A stretch of 64,000 nucleotides of DNA from Squalus acanthias (lineage: Eukaryota): contig CM059432.1 in NCBI GenBank assembly GCA_030390025.1, forward strand, positions 24,058,001-24,122,000. Direction: 5' to 3'. A program made the translations under genes and the position numbers. Below, piece after piece: positions 45,330 through 60,039 of the stretch (position 1 is its first letter; each line of letters begins with the position of its first letter). Under the pieces are notes generated by a model. It was not told where the DNA came from. It saw only the letters and a list, made by a program, of their open reading frames with translations, and did not search any database.

Positions 45330-48269
45330 GCTTGGCAGCAAAATGGATTACAGGTCTCTCCAGGCTGAGATTCAAGGCTGCAATGAGCAGGGTGTGGCTG
45401 GGGAGCAAGTGGCCCCCCCCGCTTTAAGAAGTGTCCGGCGCCAGTGTGTCTGTGTTCCCTTCGCCAACTGGCAGCAGCTGCGCTGCGCTCGCGCGCTGAG
45501 TTAGCGCCTCACTCCTTGGCCTTTGCGCCTTAAGAGAGGTGTGCAGCGCCTGCTTTAGCGCTCCACTCACCTCCCGGGGTGGTAAAAGTGAAGTTTCCTG
45601 TCAGTGCCGATAATTAGCGCCAGGCGCTAATATTTGCGTCCGGACGATATTTGCGCCCCAAATGGGGCGCAACCTAATTTCTACCCCTAAGACTACCAAA
45701 CTGCACTTAAGCTCTCTGGACTTGAGTCCCGACAGGACTGAGTGTGCACTCTAGTGCACTCTATAGCAGTCGAACAGAAACTCTGCAGTTGGATGCAGAT
45801 TTTTCAGTATCTTAAACATTGCGATGGTATTCGTGCACATAAGACAACTGGCCTACCAAAAAGTTATTTTTCTTGCCTTTAAATGCCAGCGCTGTACTGT
45901 ACTACAAGTCCTGGGCCTTCACCTTAGTTTCTCAGTAAAATATACAAATTCCTGTCAGCATAATGGCATCCAAGTCCCTGGTAATTTAATAACACTTTTT
46001 CACATTTGGATACCAAAATATCAAATTGAAAACTTGTACCGAAATCAGAACTTGAATTCAAATTTTGGACTTTCCAAATATGAGTTCCAAATCCCAACTT
46101 ATCTCATTGCTCATCTGTATTTTCCTCCCTATTTCTGCTTATTCTGTTTGTCTTTCATAAGATCCCAGGAGCACCACACCAAGCCAGTGCTTCACTCTGC
46201 TGGGAATTTGTTGCTGTGTATTGGGTTAAAACAGTTTCCTGGACTTACTTTGTATAACAAAAAAGGTATTTAATCTTCATTCAACTTCATTGCCCTTATC
46301 TTATCTTCTAACACCATGCTTCTAAGGCTGACAAACACAGATACTGATCCCACAGTCTCATCTTTAATGATGAGATTGGTTGGTAGTTCAGCACTAACTT
46401 ACATTGTCTTGGTTGTCTCTAGTTTTGAATTCATTTCGTAGTGAAAAATGTGTGCTCATCACTGTTCATTCATGATAGCTTTTCAGGGCCGAAGTGGCTC
46501 ATACGAGAGATTTAATCTGTTGTGCAAGGTTATGAGACAATAGAGTCTGACTAAGCTGAATGAATGTAGAGGCTGCAGGCAAACGTCTTTATACTTAAAC
46601 AGTCTGGTCTCAAACAGAGAGGTCTTTATCACCATTATACTCCTTTCCTGAATAAAAATCAATAAATGCTTCCCAATGAAAGAAAATATGGGGAAGCTCT
46701 TCTGACACCTCAATCATGATTCTGAACAGGACAGAAGATAAAGCTTGTCATCCTTCTTTCACATCTATCGTTTAAACTATCTCTCTTCTCTCGCAATTTT
46801 ATTGAAACTGTTAAAATTACTGATTTGCCTCCACCTAGAGTATTATTTGCCATGGGGAATGAGGAGTGGGGGAGACATCCTGGCCTTCGAAGGAATATAA
46901 GGAAGGGCAGCTAAGTTGATAAATTGGAATGGACATCGTGGTAATGAGGAAAGACGAAGGGGGAAAAATTCGGTACCTTGGCAGCTCCCGTTAGCGCCAG
47001 CAGATGGTGCTAACCGCCCCCCCCCCACAACAGTGCCGCCGCTAACAGTTATCGTCGGGAGCCTCAACGCCAGGTGGATTGTGACTTCAGTGAGTGTGCA
47101 ACGCTCACTGACCGCCCGATCTGCTAAATTGATTGTCGCCACCTACCTTGGCACCTGGAGTAAACAGCGACAGGGAGAGCTGGCATAAAGCACCAGGAAG
47201 CTAACTCCAGGGACGTTATTTACAGGGATCATCAGTAATGAGTCGTAGCTGTAGGTTAGTGGAATTTCAGTGTTTTCTTGTCAGTTTCACATAGTTCAAC
47301 CGTCTCATTCTGTAATTTCAAGGTTATTTAGCATCAGCAGTGTTGTGGCAGTTAAAAAGTAGCTACATTTATTCTCAAAAAAATCAAACAGGTACACTTG
47401 GGTACATTAATGATAGCTATACTGGCAGTTGACCTTGCCCTCCAGGATCTATGGCAGAGGCAGTGAGAAAGACTGGAATATGTGGCCAGAGGGAGAAGGA
47501 GGGCCATCAGGGCTCTCAACAGGAGGCCTTAGCCTCTGAGGGTATTTCGAGAGGACTTCTCCTACCTCCAATTAAGCGAGGAGCAGAGCATTAGACGGCT
47601 CTGCTTCACCAAGGAGGTGGTCACAGAACGCTGCTGCATCCTGCAACCAGACCTCTAGCCTCATATCAGGGTGACCACAGCTCTCCCAGTGGCAGTCAAG
47701 GTCACCGTCACCCTCAATTTCTTCGCCAGCGGATCCTTCCAGTCTGCAACGGGAGACATAGCTAACATCTCTCAGATCGCCGTCCATCACTGCATCCAGG
47801 AGGTCACAGAGGCTCTCTACACAGGAGAAGGGACTACATTTCCTTCCCTACCACCAGAGAGAAGCAGGACGAGCATTGGTGTGACATTGCCAGGATAGTG
47901 GGATTCCCCATAGTGCAGGGCACCATTGACTGCACCCACGTGGCTTTGCGGGCACTGCACAACAATCCTGAGATCTACTGTAACTGCAAAGGCTACCATT
48001 CATGTGCAGTCGGTGTGCGATCACAGACAGCTAATCTTCAATGTCAATGCCCGCTATGCTGGCAGCAGCCACAATGCCTTCATCCTGCGCCAGACCAGTG
48101 TGCCAGCACTCTTCCAGCCACCATGTCCAGCTTGCGGCTGCCTGCTCAGAGACAAGGGCTACCCACTCTCCACCTGGCTCATGACTCCCCTCCACAACCC
48201 CAACACTCCCGCCCAGCACTCATATAACGAGAGTCATGCTGCCACCAGGAACATCATCGAGCAGACCAT

Positions 48270-49723
48270 TGAAGGGATAATTACAAGTCGTAGCCCTTCT
48301 CAGGCTAGCCCAGATCAGGCGTATTCCCCAGACGTTCCCCTTCAACTAAAGTTAGAGATAGCCGAATCCTATAAGACGCTTAATTGGGTCTAAAGGTCCA
48401 GACTATCTCTCCCGAAAGGAAAGAAACAACTTGAAGATATTACCGTCCTCCAGATAACACTTTTAATAAGTTTAACTAGACTGTAACCTTCCGGATATTA
48501 TGAGGGTCTGGAAAACCCTCCAGAATTCTGCAACTCCTCACAAAAGAGTGTACAGAGATTTGAGTTTGCGAGGTTGATACAGAAATACTCTGTGAGACAA
48601 TTCTAAAAATATATAGATTTATTAAGGAACCGACATTTAGTTAACAGCTGATGAGTCAATCGCGACTTTGACAGTTCAAAATACAAATAGCTTACAATTC
48701 TATTCTCAGAGATCCTTATTCTCAAATCTTAACTTCGTTACATTTTTACATTTCTAAGTCTTATTCTTAATCCAGAATATCCACCAAAATCAATTAAAGT
48801 ACCGTTTGATCCCGGAGACTCAAAGAGTTAAAAACTTACAGAGCCTGCCTCTGAAGCTGAGAATCGCCTGCCCTTTCCAGCGACTTCTGTTTTCCCATTT
48901 GAAAATCCCATATCTTATACTCTTTTTGCAGTGGTCTCTCCTTTGAAGTTTTCTGCTGATGTAAGCTAATTATCTCTAGTCAGTCTTTCTGTTGACTTCT
49001 TTCTATTCTTACTGTTAGTTCAGCTGCTAACTCTCAGAATCCTGTCTGCTGTATAGGTGTTTCATAACTTATCAAATATGGTTTAACAGATTTATCTATT
49101 TGATGCTATTCTTACGAGGTCTTCTATTGAATTCTTAATATCCCCTTAACTGGTTATAAGCAGACGTCATGTCTACTAACTGTTCCAAGTTCAATACAAA
49201 CACAATGTGATTGCTTGGTACATCTATCTTCAAAGTGTTCTGTAGGTATCATATTTACAATATGTAAATCAAAACCACTTCAACCAGGGTGTTCCATGCA
49301 TTTCTTAGCTACTTCAATTGGTTGTATATATAATTGTGTTCCCTGTTTCATTTGATATTACTTTTACAAAGGCACATGGTTTTTTAATGTTCTGTGTTTC
49401 TGTTTGATGTGTTAATTTTTAACACTTTAAACTGGGTATAGCATTGTGTTGGTTCCAAACTGCAGACTCCTTGGAAGCAAGCCTTTGCTTCTTCAATAGG
49501 GCCATTGTCTCTGTGTCAATAACCATTTCCCATTTCAAAAGCTTGTATGGTGTTTACAGCTTTGTGTTAACACTTCATCTTATCTCAGAAGCCTGTATTT
49601 CTGTTTACAGCTTGTGTCGTTGAGGCTTTTAGATTTTTAAACCCAGTTTGTCATATTTTAATAATGTCAGAATTCTGTTCATAGGATGGCGTGTTTTTCT
49701 GAAATATGGCTCATTGCATTACA
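48270..49723 (-). repeat. 3' LTR of the foamy-like ERV, 1454 bp
   Basis: Minus strand TGTAATG...CCCTTCA; TATAAGA 48919-48913; GTAAGT 48839-48834; AATAAA 48623-48618; highly similar to 56702-57600. Confidence 0.92.
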
Positions 49724-49733
49724 CCCCCCTCTT
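49724..49733 (-). promoter_or_regulatory. Polypurine tract
   Basis: AAGAGGGGGG immediately before the TG of the 3' LTR. Confidence 0.85.
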
Positions 49734-50345
49734 GACCAAAAGATGAGCTTAAAACATCAGGGCAGAGTTTGGTCAATGTTCCTCATAAGGTTACAATAGC
49801 ATATTAAGTTCACGAGATGCACAATCATGTGTTACATGAAAATTCCTTTTAAGTCATCCTAGGACAATGTTTTGCCTTATTTTAAATTGAACACAATTTA
49901 AAAGGATGATAGTACATAGTCATGCTATTAGTGAAACAACATGTACTTAGAATGTCCAATCGGCAGATGTACATTCCGTAGAGGTGAGTTATTCATATGA
50001 GTCAAGGAGACGTCATTCGAAAGTAGTTGAAGCTTGACACGCTGTTTCTTTGATCCGTTGTGTGTACAGATGCTTGTTGTCGTAAAGGCCTTGCCAGGCA
50101 CTCAGTTGATTCCTTCTTCATCCACGATGTCTTCCTCCTTCGCTGAAGTAACTCGTTGATCTTTCCTTGTTTTGGTTGTCGCTTCCCGCGAATCCAATTC
50201 CTGATGCGTTGCCAAGCAATGTGTAGAAGAGCCAGCGACACCTTCTGACTGACCATCGTCAGTAATTCGATCGCATCCATTTCCTGTGTCGTGCTCCAAA
50301 CTGGGTCTTGAAAGACAGTGTACAACTGCACCTTGTATTATTCCT

Positions 50346-50912
50346 TCATTTCAGTATCCCGCAGGACATCTCGTTATTGTCTATGGAGACAGTTTTAAGA
50401 ATATGCTTGCCATTCGGCTGGTTAATATGTATTTGAACTGTTCTTTCATTAATAACAGAATGTATTTGAAGAGGTTTTTTCCACTTCGGTCTTAAACCAG
50501 GTTTTTGCTCGAACTTCTTTTCCTGTACCCATTCTCCTACTGTGGGTTGCCATGCTTTGTTTGTCAATTTTTTCTGCCTATTTGCCTCCCTTATCCTCTA
50601 ATCAATTCGATGAATCTCCTCTGTTACTTCTTTTTTTAAATCTAACTGTCGCTGTCAGGTCAAGGACTCAGAGTGTGTAGAAGCAATAAAAGAACTATGG
50701 TTAAGCGGTGTATGCATCTCAACCCCATACATCAGATAATATGGAGTTTTAGGGGACACTATCCCTGATGCAGATGTGGGCACATTATTGAGTGAAAGCT
50801 GCACCTCCGGAATGATGGTGGTCCACTTATTCCCTCTGATTCTCAACAGTTTGACCAATAGCTTTTTTACTTCCTGGTTTTTACGTTCCACCAGCCCCGC
50901 TGATTGCGGATG
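50346..50912 (-). pseudogene. Foamy-like integrase, end of catalytic core + C-terminal domain, two in-frame stops
   Basis: HPQSAGLVERKN..VKKLLVKLL..KW..IPEVQLSLNN..TPYYLMYG..WQPTVGEWVQE..LRPKWKKP..NERTV..TVSIDN; ORFs 50655-50984 and 50346-50567 are in the same frame. Confidence 0.88.
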
Positions 50913-53900
50913 ACATAGAAACATAGAAACATAGAAGATAGGAGCAGGAGTAGGCCATTCGGCAGCTCGAGCCTTCTCTGCCATTCGATGAGATCATGGC
51001 TGATCATCCAAACTCAGTACCCTGTCCCTGCCTTCTCCCTATATCCCTTGATACCTTTAGCCTTAAGAAATATATCTAACTCCTTCTTGAATATAATTAC
51101 TGACTTGGCCTCAACTGCCTTCTGTGGTAGAGAATTCCACAGGTTCACCACTCTCAGGGTGAAGAAATTCCTACTCATCTCTGCCCTAAATGGCTTACCC
51201 CTTATCTTTAGACTGTGACCTCTTGTTCTGGACTCACCCGCCATCGGGAACATCCTTCCTGCATCCAGTCTGTCTAGCCCTGTTAGAATTTTATAAGTTT
51301 CAATGAGATCTCCTCTCATTCTTCTAAACTCCAGCGAGTATAAGCCCAATCGACCCCATCTCTCCTCGTACGTCATTCCTGCCATCCCAGGTATCAGTCT
51401 GGTGAATCTTCGCTGCACTCCCTCCATGGCAAGAACATCCTTCCTCAGATAAGGCGACCAAAACTGCACACAATACTCAAGGTGTGGTCTCACCAAGGCC
51501 CTGTACAGCGGCAGCAAGACATCCTTGTTCCTGTACTCAAACCATCTCGCTACGAAGGCCAACATACCATTTGCCTTCTTAACCGCCTGCTGTACCTGCA
51601 TGCTTACCTTCAGCGACTGGTGCACAAGGACACCCAGGTCTCATTGCACTTCCCCTTCTCCCAATCTATTGCCGTTCAGATAATAATCTGCCTTTCTGTT
51701 TTTAACACCAAAGTGGATAACCTCGCATTTATCCACATTATACTGCATCTTCCATGCTTCTGCCCAATCACCCAACCTGTCCAAATCATACTGGAGTTTA
51801 TCGGCACCCTCCTCGCAGCACACACGCCCACCCAGCTTTGTGTCATCTGCAAACTTGGAGATATTACATCTAGTTCCCTCGTCTAGATCATTAATATATA
51901 TAGTGAATAGCTGGGGTCCTAGGACAGATCCCTGCGGAACCCCACTAGTCACTGCCTGCCACTCGGAAAAAGACCCGTTTATTCCAACTCTTTGCTTCCT
52001 ATCTGCCAACCAGTTCTCTATCCAAGTCAGTACCTTGCCCCCAATCCCATGTGCCTTAACTTTACACACTAATCCCTTATTCGGAAGCCTTCTGAAAGTC
52101 CAAATACACCACATCCACTGGTTCTCCCTTATCTATTCTATCAGTTACATCCGCAAAAAATTCCAGTAGATTAGTCAAGCACGATTTACCTTTTGTAAAT
52201 CCATGTTGACTTTGTCCAATCCTGTCACTGTTTTCCAAGTGCTCTGCTATTACATCTTTTATAATGGACTCTAGCATTTTCCCCACAACCGATGTCAGGC
52301 TTACCGGTCTATAATTCCTCGTTTTTTCTTTACCACCTTTTTTGAACAGTGGGGTAACATTAGCTACCCTCCAATCCATGGGAACTGTTCCAGAGTCTAT
52401 AGAAATTTGGAAGATGACCAGCAATGCATTTACTATTTCTAGGGCCACTTCCTTAAGTACCCTAGGATGTAGATTATCAGGCCCTGGGGATTTATCGGCC
52501 TTTAATGCCATCAATTTCCCTAACACCATTTCCCTACAAATACCGATTTCATTCAGTTCCTCCCTCTCATTAGACCCTATGTTCCCCGACATCTCTGGGA
52601 GGTTATTTGTGTTCTCCTTTGTGAAGACAGAGCCAAAGTATGTATTTAATTGGTCCGCCATTTCTTTGTTCCCCATTATAAATTCCCCTGATTCTGACTG
52701 CAAGGGACCTGCGCTTGACTTCACCAATCTTTTTCTCTTCACATATTTATAAAAGCTTTTACAGTCAGTTTTTATGTTCCCTGCAAGCTTACGCTCGTAC
52801 TCTATTTCCCCCCTCTTAATTAATCCCTTTGTCCTCCTTTGCTGAATCCTAAACTGCTCCCAATCCTCAGGTTTACTGCTTTTTCTGTCCAATTTATATG
52901 TCCTCTCCTTGGATCTAATGCTATCCCTGATTTCCCTTGTCAGCCATGGTTGAGTCACCTTTTTTGTTTTATTTTTATGCCAGACAGGAATGAACAAATT
53001 CTGTAGTTCATCCATGCGATCTTTGAATGTTTGCCATTGCCTATCCACCGTCAACCCTTTGAGTAACATTCTCCAATCTATCCTACCCAACTCGCGCCTC
53101 ATACCATCATAGTTTCCTTTATTTAAATTCAGGACCCTAGTCTCTGAGTCAACTACTTCACTCTCCATCTTAATGAAGAATTCTATCATATTATGATCGC
53201 TCCGCCCAAGGGGCCCCACACAACAAGATTGCTCATTAATCCTTCCTCGTTACATCATACCCAGTCTAAGATGGCCTGGTCTCTAGTTGGTTCCTCGACA
53301 TATTGGTCCAGGAAACCATCCCGTATACACTCCAGGAATTCCTGCTTCACAGTATTGTTACTAATTTGGTTAGCCCAATCTATATGTAGATTAAAGTCAC
53401 CCATGATAACTGCTGTGCCCTTATTACACGCATCTCTAATTTCCTGTTTAATGCCATCCCCAACCTCTGCATTACTGTTTGGGGGTCTGAATACCACTCC
53501 CACTAACGTTTTCTGCCCCTTTGTATTTCTCAGTTCTACCCATATGGATTCCACATCATCAGAGCTAATATCCTTCCTTACAATTGTGTTAATCCCCTCT
53601 TTAACCAGCAATGCTACCCCACCTCCTTTTCCTTTTTGCCTGTCTTTCCTGAATATCAAATACCCCTGGATGTTGAATTCCCAGCCTTGGTCACCCTGGA
53701 GCCATGTCTCCGTAATCCCAATCATATCATATCCGTTTACCTCTATTAGCACAGCTAATTCATCCACCTTATTACGAATGCTCCTCGCATTAAGACATAA
53801 AGCCTTCAGGCTTGTTTTTTTAACAGTCTTAGACCTTTTAGAATTATTATTTACTGTGGCCATGTTTGATTTAAACTTTCTCTGACTGTCACCTTTGCTT

Positions 53901-54414
53901 TTCTCCTTCCTGTCTTTTGCTTCTATCCTTGTTTCCCTTTCTTCTGTCTTCCTGCTCAGGTTCCCAACCCCCTGCCATTTTAGTTTAAACCCTCCCCCAG
54001 AGCACTAGCAAACACTCCCCCTAGGACATCGGTCCCGGCCCTGCCCAGGTGCAAACCGTCCAGTTTATACTGGTCCCACCTCCCCCAGAACCGGTTCCAA
54101 TGTCCCAGGAATTTGAATCCCTCCCCCTTGCACCATTCTTCTAGCCATGTATTCATTTGAAATATCCTTCTATTTCTACTCTGACTAGCACGTGGCACTG
54201 GTAGCAATCCTGAGATTACTACCTTTAAGGTCCTATTTTTTAATTTACCTCCTAACTCCTTATATTCAGCTTTTAGGACCTCATCCCATTCATTACCTAT
54301 ATCGTTGTTACCTATATGCACCACGACAACTGGCTGTTCACCCTCCCCCTCCAAAATGCTCTGCAGCCGCTCCGAGACATCCTTGACCCTTGCACCAGGG
54401 AGGCAACATACCAT
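50913..54414 (-). mobile_element. CR1 LINE (partial ORF1 esterase + frameshifted ORF2) nested in the ERV
   Basis: ORFs 53980-54414, 53255-53863, 52077-53219, 51641-52114 (FADD), 51014-51625; TTCTATGT-type tail. Confidence 0.95.
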
Positions 54415-54418
54415 ACCA

Positions 54419-55717
54419 TGATGTGGCGTGCAGTGCTCTAAGCCAATCCCCCTTTGTTCGCAGTAGTCTTTGAAGACCTTGGATACTTAAAACACACTTA
54501 AATGCTTAAACACAGGTTGGGAATACACGGTACAGGCGAGGGAGAATCACAATATACAAAAACCGTTATCCCTCCCAATCCCAGTTCACTAGCTAGGTTG
54601 GACTCTGGAGAACCAGGGATAATGCTCACCAAACGAATCCTTGGCAGTTGAGAGTTAGGGTTTAGAGTCTTTTGAGTAAAAGGTTTTGTAAGGCCCTTGT
54701 TGCCGCGAGGTGTCCAATGGTCACTGAGGCGGTCGCTCTGGTCTCTTGAACTGCTGGCCTTCTTTGTTGTACTTCTTTCTGTTGAACTCTGCCTCTGTTT
54801 AAACTGTCTTCTTCCGAGCTGTGGAACTGCCTTCTTGCAGAACTGTGGAACTCCTTGCTGCTTCTCTCCTCCTCCTGCTCGTGTCGTGTGGCTCCTGTAG
54901 CGGTGAGTAACTTGCTGTGTCTTGCTGTAACTGCCTTTCTTGGGGGATTAGGCCCTCAATTATACTGTTCAGGCCCATTGTATTTTTCGCTCCACAACCC
55001 CTTTACTAAATCGGTTTTCTCGTTGAAGTGATTTAGGTTTCAGTTGAGGCCTGTTCATTCCATTGTCTTAGGTTTTGGCGGGCTCGTTAAGTTTTGATGA
55101 TTTTAACTTGGTGTTAATTGTCCCGATGGCTTCCGATATCTTCCATTTAGGCAGGGCCTTTATCTACGCGCCAAATCTTGCCCCTTTTGTCTTAGGTTTT
55201 TGGCGGGCTTGTTAATCTGTCCCTGTAGATACTTGGCTGATTGGTTTTTGATGGGGTAATGGGTGTACTGGATGTTTTATTGTTTTCAGGCTTCTAGCAT
55301 CCTGTTTGGGCCTAGGGATTTCAAAAGGGGTCTTGGATTATTCATATTTGGATATGTGTGTGAGGTCTTGGGTGAGGCTCTTCCTCCTTGGTTGGATTGC
55401 AGTGCAAACATCTCCCAGACAGCTTGGCTCGGTCCCAATACCCACAAGCTGTCCACTGCCTCACCACACCCTTTCCTGCAGCCTGTGGAGTTTCTGTGAC
55501 TGCAGGTTTTCCCAATGGCCCTTTTAAAAGGTGTCTTATCATCGAAAAGTCATTTTCCTCAGGGTTTTTCTTCCCTGATCCGTAAAAATGTCCAAAACTG
55601 AGGTTTTGACCTCAAATTCCTTTATTTAGGTCCCATCATTCCAAATTCGTATAAAAATCCCAAAATCACCCCCTTTAGGGTTCTGTTCGAGTTTCTGGGG
55701 AATTTTGCGAATCTACA
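54419..55717 (-). mobile_element. LTR related to 60040-61538, inserted in the ERV protease
   Basis: Right end GGGAATTTTGCGAATCTACA versus GGGAATTTTGAGAACCTTACA; shared ATGCTCACCAA..CGAATCCT motif; left end and TSD not resolved. Confidence 0.65.
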
Positions 55718-56406
55718 CAGTGTAATCAGCTCCCGTATCAAACAGGGCCTTCACTTGTGTGTTTGTGGGCAAGGTTGCCCATGCATAGGGGAATTCAAGA
55801 GGCCCTGGCTGGGTGCCAGGCCTCCAATCCTGGGATTGCTCATCCTCAGGATCCTGAGCTTCATTTGCTGCGTTGTCTTGAATTATTTTAACTGATTTTT
55901 TTTCCTCCCTCTTAAGGGTATTATGTTTTCCAGATCCCTTAGGGGGTTTGTCCGACTGCTTATTATAATGGATTCTAAGCTGTCTATAGTTTTCTCGAAG
56001 ATTGTGGTCATTTATTTCATCATGAGCTTGCCACCTTAACCGGAATTCATGGCCCCCAGGAGCATAGGCTGCTCGGGTCCTGCTATTCGACCATGATTGC
56101 CACCGCCTTGCTGGGCACCTTTCATTAGGCCTCCCAATTGTGCAGGTGTGCACCTTATCATTAAGAATTTATTGGATTTGGAGTATTTGTTTGATTATCC
56201 CACTGGATATTCTGTATCCCCTGGTTCTGGGGATCAACATTAATCGTGCCATGAGTTCTAACGGCTCCTTAGGCATCAAAACCTTCGATCTCAAAAATTA
56301 TCACTTGGTTTTGTGGAGGTACAGGGATAGAATTATTTCCCCTAATAAAGCAATCGTTTGAATTTCCTAATTAAAAGACTTGGCCAATTCCGACAGGGTT
56401 TGCCAT
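55718..56406 (-). pseudogene. ERV gag remnant and aspartic protease N-terminus
   Basis: 'VKALFDTGADYT' active-site motif; possible gag ATG at 56406 with internal stops; the region is too short for a full gag. Confidence 0.7.
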
Positions 56407-56685
56407 TTCTTTAGGACCTAACCTCGGTTAGGGTTTAATTGCGTCAGGACCTAACCTCGGTTAGGGTTTAATATGAACTTTATAAGAAATTTCTAGACCT
56501 CAATGGTATATTGAGGGAGTTCTGATTTAAGTTCTACAAGGCCTGATCAGGGACTTGTCGTCTCTAGAAACTTAAATCTGGGTCTTAGAACCACTGTCAG
56601 TAAACACTCCTTCTATACTTAACAATCTACAGGATATAAATAGATATAAATATAAGTATAGGTTCTGTATCAACTCATTAACACA

Positions 56686-56699
56686 CACGTTGGGTGCCA
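56686..56699 (-). promoter_or_regulatory. Primer binding site, tRNA-Lys1,2 type
   Basis: TGGCACCCAACGTG versus canonical TGGCGCCCAACGTG, 2 nt after the LTR-terminal CA. Confidence 0.85.
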
Positions 56700-56701
56700 A
56701 C

Positions 56702-57918
56702 TGAAAGGATTATTACTAGTCCTAGCCCTTCTCGGGCTACCCCAGATCAGGCGTATTCCCCAGACGTTACCCTTCAACTAAAGTTAGAGATAGACGAATC
56801 CTATAAGACGCTTAATTGTGTCTAAAGGTCCAGACTATCTCTCCCTAAAGGAAAGAAACAACTTGAAGATATTACTGTCCTCCAGATAACACTTTTAATA
56901 AGTTTAACTAGACTGTAACCTTCCGGATATTATGAGGGTCTGGAAAACCCTCCAGAATTCTGCAACTCCTCACAAAAGAGTGTACAGAGATTTGAGTTCG
57001 CGAGGTTGATACAGAAATACTCTGTGAGACAATTCTAAAAATATATAGATTTATTAAGGAACCGACATTTAGTTAACAGCTGATGAGTCAATCGGAACTT
57101 TGACAGTTCAAAATACAAATAGCTTACAATTCTATTCTCAGAGATCCTTATTCTCAAATCTTAACTTCGTTACATTTTTACATTTCTAAGTCTTATTCTT
57201 AATCCAGAATATCCAGCAAAATCAATTAAAGTACCGTTTGATCCCTGAGACTCAAAGAGTTAAAAACTTACAGAGCCTGCCTCTGAAGCTGAGAATCCCC
57301 TGCCCTTTCCAGCGATTTCTGTTTTCCCATTTGAAAATCCCATATCTTATACTCTTTTTGCAGTGGTCTCTCTTTTGAAGTTTTCTGCTGATGTAAGCTA
57401 ATTATCTCTAGTCAGTCTTTCTGTTGACTTCTTTCTATTCTTACTGTTAGTTCAGCTGCTAACTCTCAGAATCCTGTCTGCTGTAAAGCTGTTTCCTAAC
57501 TTATCAAATATGGTTTAACAGATTTATCTATTTGATGCCATTCTTACGAGGTCTTCTATTGAATTCTTAATATCCCCTTAACTCGTTATAAGCAGACGTC
57601 GGGCCAGAAATTCAGCTTTCCAGCTTCCTGCGGGTGCAAGCATCGCGCGCGTACTTGCCTACCGCGCCTGCTGTTGTGCTTTGGGCCCACGAGGACTTCG
57701 GCTCCTGGGACTCCTCCAGCTGCCGGCGCGCAGTGCTTGCGTATCCCAGGGGCGCAGTTAGTTTGAAGCGTCCCCTGGGATCACGTGGGCCATGGAGAGC
57801 CAATGCTAACAGGGCATTTTCATTCATAGATTTGACAGGAAGACCTACTAACTGTTCCAAGTTCAATATAAACACAATGTGATTGCTTGGTACATCTATT
57901 GATATTATATCTTCAAAG
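56702..57918 (-). repeat. 5' LTR of the foamy-like ERV, interrupted and truncated in U3
   Basis: Matches 48270 to about 49240; insertion at 57601-57845; distal U3 lost. Confidence 0.9.
57601..57845. mobile_element. One-ended Harbinger/MITE fragment inside the 5' LTR
   Basis: Begins GGGCCAGAAATTC; absent from the 3' LTR. Confidence 0.6.
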
Positions 57919-60039
57919 TGACCGCATGGGAGGAGCCCTCCAGTACTCGCCAGAGCGGGTGTCCCATTTCTTAGTGGTCTGCTGCATGCTCCACAACTTG
58001 GCCATCATGAGAGCCCAGCCCTTGCCACCAGGGATTGGGGGACCACCTCAGGAGGAGGAAGAGGGAGAGGGAGAGGAGGAGGAAGACAAGGAGGAAGAGG
58101 AAGATGAGGAGGATGATGAGGAGGACGAGGAGGAGGAGGAGGAACAGGAGCGAGGGAGGAGACATCCACTCAATCGGCCCTCCGGAAGTACGGTCCATGA
58201 CCTCCTCATCAGACTGCGGTTCGAATGAATTAAACCCCAGATCCCCATTGCTCACCACATCCCCATCATTCAATCCCTGTCGCAGGCCATATCACAGTGC
58301 AAAGCTGAAATGAGACACACCACAAACTAATTTAATAAATTTATCAAAAATCAGTGAACACATATTTACAACAAAAATATTAACTCTTCACCATTGTGCA
58401 ATTCCCTAGTGCCTCTCGTTACTGTGCCTTTGCCTACTCTGGTGCTCCTATGAAGTGTTGACCCAGTGGCTGCAGCAGGGCAGGTAGAAGGCTGCTGAGT
58501 GTCCGTGCAGGAGACTTCAGATGCCATGCAGGATGCCCTCGCCCAGCTCTGGGCCTGGAAGGCCCGGATGTAGACTGCACCACCTCAGCATGGGCGGCAG
58601 CAGTCTGGGCTGGCTGGATGTCAGGCAGCACAAGGGCAATGGCGGAGTGGCAGTGGTGGGATCAGGAATGCTGTCATCCTGAGAGAGGACAGCAGGTTCC
58701 TGCTCCACTGACCCACTGCCACTCCCCCGGGGCAGCACCTCAGCATTCCTAGCTATCTGCTGGAGCACAGATTGCTGGCCTGCTGCGACACCGTGAAAGC
58801 CCTGGTCGACGGTGGTAGACCCAGCCACGATGGCAGCAGTCAAAGCTTGCGTGGCATCAAGCTGAGGCTGCATGAGAGCAGTCTGAGATTAGATACCACC
58901 AAGCATCAACTGCATTACAGCACTAAGACGTTGCGTCGCTTCCGCCTGTTCTGCAATGGAAGCTGCCAGATCGCTCATCACACGTAGCATCAGGTCTGGG
59001 TCACCACGGTCTCTCTGGGAGTCTACCATCCTTTGCAGATTGCAAATGATGGGCTACATGATGTGCACAGAGCCTTGTGCAATGTTGGAGGTGGACTCCT
59101 CCATGCTCCTTATCATTGCCGAGAGGCTCTCGGGCACCCTTGCCATTGCACCTATCATCTCGGAGTGCATGCCCATCACCCTTCTTCTAAACACCTCCCC
59201 ATCGAGGTCCTCATCTGAGTCCTGTGCAGCCGAACTCGTGCGCGAACTCACCCTCCGGGGAGCTGGCCCCCGAGCTACATTTTCCCCCTGGCCTTGCTGC
59301 AGGCCACTCGTCCCCGGTGCCTCACCCTGTGCAGATCCAGCTACTATACTAGCCTCTAAAGAACACATAGTGCCAGTATCTGAGCTGGTGTCTGCAGTGA
59401 CGCGGTGTGTTCTACCTCCTCCTCTTCTCCTGCCTTTCTCTCTACCGTGCCCTCAGGGACAGGCTGCTCAGGTGCTTGCTGATTATCTGAAAGCATAAAG
59501 GCTCAAGAGTTGGGTTCAGGTGAGGGGAGGGGGGCAGGAAGGGAGAAATGCATGCATGTAGCATGATTAGCTGGAAAGTGCAAAACGCTTGTGGGGTGAG
59601 GGGAAGTGGGATGTGAGAAGAAGGAGTAGGGATGAACATACCGTTATTGCACCCAAGGGGTCAACGTCGCCGGTGGCCATGGCACCCACCACCTGGCACC
59701 CAATAATCTGCAGCACTCTATTCTGCAGGGCAGACTGTGGTTCAGTTTCGGCTTGTCCCCCGCTTGTGTGCTCCTGCTCCCTCCTGTGATGAGCCAACTT
59801 GGCCTGTAAGAGAAAGAAAAGTGCTTGAGTGAGTGTCGAGCAATGTCTTTGGGTGATGTGCCTGCCATAGTTGAATAGCTGTCATTGTGTGCAAGGTGTG
59901 AGATGTGGGTGTGAGTGTTGGTAGGTGGAGATTGTTGGTGGGTGAGTGCTGGGGGTGTGGTGCTTTGGGCAGTGTGTGAAGATTGTGTTACAGATGGTGG
60001 TATGTAACATTTGTTGACGCATTCGCTCACCCTCACCAG

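What the first reader, a model, noticed from the sequence alone, without database searches (positions are those of the whole stretch)
48270..57918. Foamy-virus-like endogenous retrovirus in a probable shark genome
Seen: two LTRs, PBS, protease motif, integrase C-half and PPT on the minus strand. Known, recalled rather than searched: prototype foamy virus integrase has HPQSSGKVERKN, VQLALNN, WSPVVGQLVQE, LRPRWHKP, NPRTV and TVSIDN. The remnant here shows these motifs in the same order, a combination I do not associate with Gypsy integrases. Foamy-like ERVs are known from fishes, including a chimaera, but are sparsely sampled in cartilaginous fish. Inference: possibly an undescribed lineage relevant to early retrovirus evolution. 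RT-RNase H and env are not visible in this copy.
Basis: partly seen in the sequence, partly recalled or inferred. Interest (0 to 1): 0.85.

Follow-up and report, generated by a model that had tools for sequence, protein, structure and literature searches.

The report
Env-less foamy provirus, in-frame gag-stop-pol
This is a dead, chopped-up copy of a foamy-type retrovirus in a likely shark or ray genome; most copies of its large family lack the envelope gene, and its gag and pol genes share one reading frame split by a stop codon, so it likely made its enzymes by reading through that stop rather than by the splicing that living foamy viruses use.

Summary
Confirmed. The window holds a two-LTR provirus with a foamy-type PBS, protease motif, integrase remnant (PFV integrase E 4e-23) and PPT. 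A CR1 LINE, a foreign LTR and deletions break it up. Other genome copies supply RT, RNase H, foamy capsid, protease and Env domains (Pol 38-40% identical to simian foamy viruses). Trees put the family with true foamy viruses, beside a Scyliorhinus torazame element, not with Gypsy or teleost foamy-like ERVs. The host is an elasmobranch by inference. About 7 loci keep env; 34 sampled copies share one env deletion; first-look candidates number 556 (integrase) and 4701 (LTR). Gag and pol lie in one frame with TGA (113 exact sites) or TGG (31) between them and no conserved pol ATG, unlike mammalian foamy viruses and the annotated newt and teleost elements. Readthrough is my best reading (about 0.5); it is untested. 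Shark endogenous foamy viruses are in print (CFEFV 2023, not readable here), so the lineage may be catalogued. The scan noted this family before on other DNA of this genome (e1-8040416, e1-7805515). New variant of a known kind.

The parts
47914..48269 (+). Host-side Harbinger-type DDE transposase gene, 5' part (insertion target)
   Evidence: Pfam DDE_Tnp_4 E 3.5e-14; continues at 57919 after about 30 nt lost, judged against other Harbinger copies
48270..49723 (-). 3' LTR, TG...CA, 1454 nt
49724..49733 (-). Polypurine tract abutting the LTR TG (GGGTG border)
   Evidence: border motif as in PMC5210030 section 3.4
49734..50340 (-). Env-deletion stub: start of the env ORF joined near 50070 to the region after env
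   Evidence: its ORF matches the env N-terminus of env-bearing copies; same junction contiguous in 34 of 47 sequences examined
50102..50914 (-). Integrase C-half with SH3-like CTD and C-terminal tail (two stops, one frameshift near 50370)
50915..54417 (-). CR1-type LINE (esterase ORF1 remnant, endonuclease, RT, microsatellite tail) inserted in integrase with a 4-nt duplication
   Evidence: Pfam Lipase_GDSL_2, Exo_endo_phos, RVT_1; ends; elasmobranch top hits
54418..54486 (-). Integrase core fragment (23 codons) upstream of the LINE
   Evidence: 88-97% to the same stretch in 20 of 20 copies
54487..55716 (-). Foreign LTR-like repeat (family about 1.41 kb), its 3' end deleted together with most of pol
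   Evidence: 4864 first-look candidates; TG start, and other copies run about 175 nt further
55717..55823 (-). Protease N-part with DTGA at 55739-55728, in frame with gag, no ATG
55824..55826 (-). Gag/pol junction codon: TGG here, TGA in most copies
55827..56406 (-). Gag remnant with the shared internal deletion of about 990 nt that removes the capsid domain (junction 55966/55962)
56682..56699 (-). Primer-binding site, foamy (tRNA-Lys) type, 2 nt after the LTR's CA
   Evidence: window 14 of 17 nt and family commonest form 15 of 17 nt to the human foamy virus PBS given in PMC3386198
56702..57918 (-). 5' LTR, truncated in U3, with a 245-nt non-autonomous repeat at 57846-57601
57919..58225 (+). 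Harbinger transposase, 3' part
   Evidence: BLAST to other Harbinger copies

Best explanation
The element is a dead copy of an endogenous foamy virus family in a likely elasmobranch host; the family likely lost env once and then multiplied inside germ-line cells, and it likely made Pol as a Gag-Pol protein by reading through a UGA that separates gag and pol in one frame. Steps. (1) Germ-line infection by an env-bearing foamy virus: env-bearing copies are shown, the infection is inferred. (2) One deletion of env: the shared junction is shown, a single origin is inferred. (3) Intracellular retrotransposition to hundreds of internal copies and thousands of LTRs: inferred from the counts and from known foamy biology, where release needs Env but producer cells re-integrate genomes (PMC3185757). 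(4) Template-switch deletions at short microhomologies gave capsid-less and RT-less subfamilies that were moved in trans and recombined: breakpoints are shown, the mechanism is inferred. (5) Gag ends at TGA and Pol follows in frame after 28 codons with no conserved ATG: shown. Readthrough is inferred, with TGG alleles as constitutive fusions. (6) This copy, a capsid-less TGG type, inserted into a Harbinger gene roughly 27-62 Myr ago (rate-dependent) and then took a LINE, a foreign LTR, a small repeat and two deletions.
For: Foamy membership: (38-40% identity over 99% of 872 aa, E to 5e-184); trees. 4-nt target duplications: 5 of 8 resolved copies match 4/4 and 3 of 8 match 3/4, with poorer 5- and 6-nt registers. 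Env: DNA search found 9 candidates at 7 loci against 556 for the integrase/3' part, 191 for capsid (46), 161 for RT (36) and 4701 for the LTR (48). Env-less copies form one clade (UFboot 92) when rooted on env-bearing ones. One frame: natural ORFs run Gag_FV_central into protease (669 aa) and on into RT (658 aa). Exact 20-mers: TGA 113, TGG 31, reversed-pattern controls 0. A Met between junction and catalytic Asp in only 4 of 36 readable copies of 71. Both env-bearing copies that keep the junction have the same spacing, one TGA and one TGG, so the layout predates env loss. Pol shows net purifying selection between groups that are TGA at both ends (full vs RT-less: integrase net pN/pS 0.30, 0 of 60 bootstraps at or above 1; protease 0.32, fraction 0.08). 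A related public protein, P0017 (1687 aa), is an uninterrupted Gag-Pol with a homologous junction and groups with the family. In-frame PFV Gag-Pol fusions replicate (PMC3196705 abstract).
Against: No expression data. The hairpin after the stop folds at z -2.7 in the window, but in a sliding control on another copy the junction windows scored only z -0.6 to -1.4 and none was in the top 10 of 123 (that copy has a variant in the upstream arm). The hairpin starts directly at the stop, closer than known readthrough signals (recalled), and UGA-A is not a classic leaky context (recalled). Recombination with TGG lineages could have supplied the purifying signal on pol in TGA copies. TGG is scattered over the trees: 5 env-less full copies share few private variants, and 2 RT-less copies carry it; readthrough alone does not predict this. 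Trees are quick searches with SH-aLRT only; the careful RT tree did not finish. The family's sister position has 83-91 support. Candidate counts come from a loose first look and are not copy numbers.
Confidence: 0.5

Rival explanations
1. No readthrough. The TGG allele (constitutive Gag-Pol fusion) was the only Pol source, and TGA copies were Gag-only passengers moved in trans, outnumbering their helpers. Foamy membership and env loss are unchanged.
For: P0017 is a stop-less Gag-Pol. In-frame PFV fusions are viable. One env-bearing copy has TGG. 7 of 31 TGG sites are in copies with both capsid and RT. Capsid-less copies, mostly TGG, keep RT under purifying selection (within-group pN/pS 0.25 vs 0.54 in full copies); RT-less copies keep capsid (0.43 vs 0.63) while their RNase H relaxes.
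Against: TGA is the majority in full-length env-less copies (14 of 15 RT-selected hits without the capsid deletion have TGA and 1 has TGC), and these form the basal star of the env-less clade. A clean Gag-only/Pol-only split fails: RT loss is not tied to the codon (TGG 11 deleted/16 present; TGA 15/10; p 0.27), and 10 of 23 capsid-less TGG copies also lack RT. The TGG/capsid-deletion link (23:8 vs 9:27, p 8e-5) may be linkage over 140 nt in shared ancestors.
Confidence: 0.22
2. Pol was made from a spliced mRNA as in mammalian foamy viruses, with an acceptor just after the TGA and an AUG brought in from an upstream exon.
For: This is the rule for Spumaretrovirinae (PMC3185757, PMC7828637 passages). 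A few AG dinucleotides follow the stop (sequence).
Against: No conserved ATG in the pol frame before the active site. The shared deletions end in microhomology with AT..AG or TA..CT ends, not GT..AG. Annotated newt and teleost elements give pol its own frame, with an ATG in three of four (PMC5512871 supplement); this family does not.
Confidence: 0.13
3. The UGA was recoded at the RNA level: A-to-I editing of its third base in a hairpin where it faces a C gives UGG, and some edited genomes were fixed as TGG proviruses.
For: The third base faces a C at the foot of the predicted stem. A-to-G at this base recurs across clades. The neighbouring A changed in 1 site against 113 and never to G. Background A-to-G is about 0.5% per site per copy, against 5 TGG among an estimated 28-53 full env-less copies.
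Against: A 5' G neighbour is poor for ADAR (recalled). The stem is weaker in env-bearing copies. TGC also occurs (5 sites) and positions 1-2 changed in 5 sites, so background is not negligible. A master polymorphism spread by recombination, or templated correction of an imperfect inverted repeat, explains the scatter as well (one other column has 11 of 29 G).
Confidence: 0.1
4. The element is a Ty3/Gypsy or non-foamy class III retroelement with convergent integrase motifs.
For: Most copies lack env, and in-frame gag-stop-pol is typical of non-foamy retroviruses (recalled).
Against: Foamy-specific Pfam domains in Gag, protease, integrase CTD and Env; PDB hits to PFV Gag, integrase and Env; trees.
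Confidence: 0.02

Closest known systems
Cartilaginous-fish endogenous foamy virus (CFEFV; Wang, Chen, Cui 2023, J Virol, PMC9972966; title seen in a reference list, content recalled, text not held)
   Same: True foamy-clade ERV in sharks or rays. The nearest named relative in my Pol tree is a Scyliorhinus torazame protein (P0032, SH 91), a species I recall from that paper.
   Different: P0032 is only 40% identical, so it is not the same family. I could not check whether that paper covers this genome, the env-less expansion or the gag/pol layout.
Exogenous mammalian foamy viruses (PFV/SFV, FFV)
   Same: PR-RT-RH-IN order and spacing, foamy capsid and protease domains, SH3 CTD, Env family, Lys-type PBS, GGGTG PPT border, 4-nt TSD, no Cys-His box.
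   Different: Gag and pol in one frame with a stop and no pol ATG, against a separate spliced pol mRNA. No central PPT duplicate and no clear tas/bet ORF found. Env lost in most copies; high copy number.
Newt and teleost foamy-like ERVs (NviFLERV, AciFLERV, AliFLERV; PMC5512871) and catshark ERV-Spuma.0-Sca (PMC10699275)
   Same: Aquatic foamy-related ERVs with long LTRs and 4-nt TSD.
   Different: Their pol is in its own frame, with an ATG in three of four annotated genomes (supplement passages). Teleost-type sequences fall outside this family's clade. The catshark element was reported to group with teleost FLERVs.
P0017, an unnamed 1687-aa Gag-Pol protein from a public assembly (Logan)
   Same: Foamy-clade Pol (38%), single Gag-Pol ORF with a homologous junction, groups with the family.
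   Different: No stop between gag and pol; Gag only 22% identical; genomic context not seen.
Env-less 'superspreader' ERVs such as MuERV-L (seen in search listing) and gammaretroviral gag-stop-pol readthrough (recalled)
   Same: Works like them: env loss followed by intracellular amplification; in-frame stop between gag and pol.
   Different: Different clade; UGA rather than UAG; no spacer-plus-pseudoknot signal shown.

Membership tests
Spumaretrovirinae (foamy viruses, including endogenous forms) | Pol/RT/IN phylogeny inside the foamy clade | tested here: met
   Window IN in a 100* clade with mammalian and amphibian FVs; RT 91; long Pol 90-91. Quick trees, SH-aLRT only.
Spumaretrovirinae (foamy viruses, including endogenous forms) | Foamy Gag central (capsid) domain, no Cys-His box, Gly/Arg-rich C-terminus | tested here: met
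   PF20672 E 2e-15 and PDB 5m1h E 5e-6 in family copies; no CCHC in the one Gag ORF scanned. Deleted in the window copy.
Spumaretrovirinae (foamy viruses, including endogenous forms) | Spumavirus protease A9 and SH3-type integrase CTD | tested here: met
   PF03539 E 5e-7; PF18103 E 4e-9 in the window
Spumaretrovirinae (foamy viruses, including endogenous forms) | Foamy-type Env | tested here: met
   PF03408 up to E 3e-22 in G000, 0 of 14 control genomes; those loci are 84-93% identical to env-less copies in gag/pol; PDB gp130 E 8e-10. Only a stub in the window.
Spumaretrovirinae (foamy viruses, including endogenous forms) | tRNA-Lys PBS two nt from the LTR, PPT abutting TG, 4-nt TSD | tested here: met
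   19 of 47 sequences gave a PBS match, all after CA+2 nt; TSD 4/4 in 5 of 8 and 3/4 in 3 of 8. The window's own TSD is lost with the 5' deletion.
Spumaretrovirinae (foamy viruses, including endogenous forms) | Pol has its own frame and AUG, independent of Gag (layout) | tested here: not met
   One frame, TGA or TGG at the junction, Met in 4 of 36 readable copies. I therefore file it as foamy by descent, not as a canonical foamy virus.
Spumaretrovirinae (foamy viruses, including endogenous forms) | Spliced pol mRNA (transcript level) | not testable with these tools
   No RNA holder listed; only contigs could be laid
Spumaretrovirinae (foamy viruses, including endogenous forms) | Accessory genes (tas/bet) and internal promoter | tested here: inconclusive
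   About 580 nt from env end to PPT and no clear ORF in 3 of 6 degraded env copies scanned; promoter not tested
Spumaretrovirinae (foamy viruses, including endogenous forms) | Central PPT duplicating the 3' PPT inside integrase | tested here: not met
   No duplicate in 4 copies scanned by simple patterns
CFEFV (published cartilaginous-fish EFV) | Sequence identity or clade membership with published CFEFV elements | not testable with these tools
   Paper and its sequences not held
Ty3/Gypsy LTR retrotransposons | RT/IN in the Gypsy clade; no second RNase H; no retroviral Env | tested here: not met
Teleost foamy-like ERVs (FLERV) | Groups with ray-finned fish foamy-like Pol | tested here: not met
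   Coilia and Zoarces proteins with their unnamed neighbours form a separate clade (96-100*). Calling these proteins FLERVs is my inference from host and position; published FLERV sequences were not in the tree.

The most novel reading that the evidence does not exclude
A cartilaginous-fish branch of true foamy viruses expressed Pol the orthoretroviral way, as Gag-Pol by recoding a UGA (readthrough or A-to-I editing), already while it had env. It then became a natural env-less foamy retrotransposon with thousands of insertions. Gag-independent Pol, the hallmark of Spumaretrovirinae, is then not universal in the subfamily and switched at least once.
Probability: 0.5. Interest if true: 0.78.

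Novelty: new variant of a known kind. Interest (0 to 1): 0.62.

Why it matters
Separate, spliced Pol expression is described as what sets foamy viruses apart from all other retroviruses (PMC3185757, PMC7828637). A natural foamy-clade family with gag-stop-pol in one frame, plus a stop-less relative, would show that this trait is labile. It matches a laboratory result that PFV tolerates Gag-Pol fusions (PMC3196705). Newt and teleost elements have separate pol frames, so the layout is more likely derived in this branch than ancestral, though sampling is thin. The family is also a large natural case of foamy retrotransposition without Env, where endogenous foamy viruses are usually described as rare. 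Shark foamy ERVs as such are not new, and the window copy itself is a wreck.

Tried and rejected
Clean two-part complementation (Gag-only plus Pol-only subfamilies): suggested by the first 40 copies and by dN/dS, but weakened by the less biased sample of all 31 TGG sites and 40 of 113 TGA sites; kept only inside a rival. Hairpin as a special recoding signal: not outstanding in the sliding control. TGC as a second hot spot: 5 sites, near the background at positions 1-2; dropped. Deletions as retro-copied spliced RNAs: the ends are not GT..AG. An 'SKGVVERK' stretch near 55010 that looked like a second integrase piece lies in the foreign LTR. Expression: no RNA holder listed; only contigs were laid, so nothing on transcription, splicing or editing. 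Search for longer fused relatives of the Gag-PR ORF: none at E 0.01, weak evidence, and it missed P0017. No tRNA gene in the window. IQ-TREE on the junction timed out; FastTree was used. The careful RT tree was unfinished. Seven literature searches showed no report of in-frame gag-stop-pol or env-less amplification in a foamy-clade ERV. The CFEFV paper and its supplements, and bioRxiv supplements, could not be seen and may bear on this.
Full report
Observation. The provirus lies on the minus strand between 57918 and 48270. The 3' LTR (49723-48270) is whole. The 5' LTR lacks about 488 nt of U3 and holds a 245-nt repeat. The two match at 97.3% over 899 nt, K2P 0.027. The PBS follows CA+GT and the PPT abuts the 3' LTR. 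The integrase C-half, read with X at two stops, matches PFV integrase at E 4.2e-23 and Ty3 at E 0.31, and Pfam SH3_11. The element sits in a Harbinger transposase gene; about 30 nt of that gene, with the target duplication, were lost with the 5' end. A CR1 LINE split the integrase. A foreign LTR-like repeat entered the protease gene, and a deletion then removed its 3' end and about 2.8 kb of pol.

Host. The genome has 3.7 Gb. Among named hits the nested CR1 protein is 70-78% identical to Hypanus, Leucoraja and Pristiophorus proteins and about 40% to bird and reptile ones. An elasmobranch host is inferred; shark versus ray is open.

Family. First-look candidates in G000: 4701 for the LTR end, 556 for the integrase/3' part, 191 for capsid, 161 for RT, and 9 at 7 loci for env. 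These are not copy numbers. I fetched the 20 best integrase hits after the window itself, 20 of 40 RT hits and 6 env loci. Natural ORFs carry Gag_FV_central, Spuma_A9PTase, RT, two RNase H-like domains and integrase. An 872-aa RT-RH-IN ORF is 38-40% identical to simian foamy Pol over 99% of its length. Among 50%-cluster representatives the two best hits were feline foamy Pol and the unnamed P0017, both 38%. Env loci match PF03408 and foamy gp130 structures and are 84-93% identical to env-less copies in gag/pol. Target duplications are 4 nt: 5 of 8 resolved copies match 4/4 and 3 of 8 match 3/4.

Placement. In the integrase tree (43 rows, one left out) the window row lies in a 100% clade with mammalian and amphibian foamy viruses and P0017. 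The RT tree used the 70 closest of 153 candidate rows and only the quick search finished; the family with P0017 is sister to mammalian foamy viruses at 90-91. In the long Pol tree (28 rows) the family groups with P0017 and a Scyliorhinus torazame protein (91), sister to a frog element and mammalian viruses (91); newt, Callorhinchus and teleost rows lie further out. The order inside the foamy clade differs between trees, for example for the S. torazame row.

Env loss and subfamilies. One env-deletion junction is contiguous in 34 of 47 sequences; the other 13 are 6 env-bearing loci and 7 stretches with no match to that region. Env-less copies form one clade (UFboot 92) on an 830-nt integrase segment rooted on env-bearing copies (39 rows, 8 left out). 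Two more deletions recur at fixed breakpoints: about 990 nt of gag (capsid) and about 1270 nt of RT. Natural ORFs read across both. Contigs of public runs coded as organisms A, D and E join across the gag deletion, and A, C, D and E across the RT deletion. The window copy is capsid-less. LTR-pair distances run from 0.010 to 0.058 in 26 of 47 sequences with a pair. The window's 0.027 gives about 27 Myr at 0.5e-9 (rate used in PMC10699275) or about 62 Myr at 2.2e-10 (PMC4422223). The excess of transversions makes this rough.

Gag/pol layout. Natural ORFs run from foamy capsid into protease without a frame change. The junction codon is TGA at 113 exact 20-mer sites, TGG at 31 and TGC at 5. It lies 28 codons before the catalytic Asp, with a Met between in 4 of 36 readable copies out of 71. 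Two of six env-bearing loci keep the junction, one TGA and one TGG. P0017 is a stop-less Gag-Pol with a similar junction. Reviews state that foamy viruses make no Gag-Pol fusion and use a spliced pol mRNA. The four genomes annotated in the supplement of PMC5512871 give pol its own frame, three with an ATG.

How Pol was made. Readthrough is my best reading (0.5). TGA dominates full-length env-less copies, they form the base of the env-less clade, and pol shows net purifying selection between TGA groups (integrase 0.30, protease 0.32). Against it: the hairpin after the stop (z -2.7) was not outstanding in a sliding control, recombination can carry the selection signal, and TGG is scattered across clades. 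Rivals are TGG-only autonomy with TGA passengers (0.22), splicing (0.13) and A-to-I editing (0.10). In all 31 TGG sites and 40 of 113 TGA sites, TGG goes with the capsid deletion (23:8 vs 9:27, 4 unclassified, p 8e-5, copies not independent) but not with RT presence (p 0.27). A neat Gag-only/Pol-only partnership is therefore not shown, although capsid-less copies keep RT and RT-less copies keep capsid under stronger constraint. Integrase looks neutral between the two deleted subfamilies (net ratio 1.76). That fits retention for cis-acting reasons, as an earlier scan note suggested (e1-7805515); I found no central PPT duplicate.

What is known. Foamy-related ERVs are reported from Callorhinchus (PMC5512871), catshark (PMC10699275; groups with teleost elements) and, as true foamy viruses, cartilaginous fish (PMC9972966). 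I could not test identity with the last. Seven searches showed no report of this layout or of env-less amplification in a foamy-clade ERV. The scan had noted the family on other DNA of this genome with a similar reading; my reading was recorded before I saw those notes, and they are not independent support.

Papers seen. PMC10699275: parts 1-2 of 4. PMC5512871: passages and supplement passages. PMC5210030: passages and section 3.4. PMC4422223: part 1 of 2. PMC3196705: abstract. Passages only: PMC6001957, PMC10581153, PMC8227577, PMC12690878, PMC3386198, PMC3185757, PMC7828637, PMC6955096, bioRxiv 2020.12.18.423569 and 2021.11.23.469661. PMC9972966: title only, content recalled. PMC8223930: not held. 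Statements on ADAR preferences, readthrough contexts and gammaretroviral readthrough are recalled.

Verdict. A real endogenous foamy virus remnant, foamy by descent, failing the canonical separate-Pol layout. New variant of a known kind; interest 0.62.

Noticed in passing
window 54487-55716; L077-L079: A separate 1.41-kb LTR-like repeat family (TG start, AATAAA near the 3' end, 4864 first-look candidates) with a cluster of near-identical copies on contig C25 around 44.8-45.0 Mb; its parent element was not sought.
   Followed up: partly
window 57601-57846: A 245-nt non-autonomous repeat in the 5' LTR, also seen at 83-91% in or beside four other fetched copies; family not identified.
   Followed up: no
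window 55844-55857: A perfect 14-nt palindrome about 20-30 nt upstream of the gag stop, at the start of a second predicted hairpin; not conserved in all subfamilies.
   Followed up: partly
window 56405-56470: A 33-nt tandem duplication just before the gag ATG.
   Followed up: no
window LTR pair 48270-49235 and 56702-57918: More transversions (16) than transitions (10) between the LTRs, with differences clustered at the U5 end; could be assembly error, recombination or the host's mutation spectrum.
   Followed up: no
P0017: An unnamed 1687-aa foamy-clade single-ORF Gag-Pol on a 10.9-kb public contig, a second lineage without a separate pol ORF.
   Followed up: partly
L060:2300-7800: Contigs from runs coded as organisms A, C, D and E cover the family's gag-pol region and join across one or both shared deletions; the codes may be related species or relabelled samples.
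   Followed up: partly
L047:7893-9812: A second, distant LTR-retroelement pol (about 25% identical) next to an env-bearing locus on contig C20.
   Followed up: no
window 50915-54417: The nested CR1 keeps a GDSL/SGNH esterase ORF1 domain and a (TTCTATG)n tail.
   Followed up: partly
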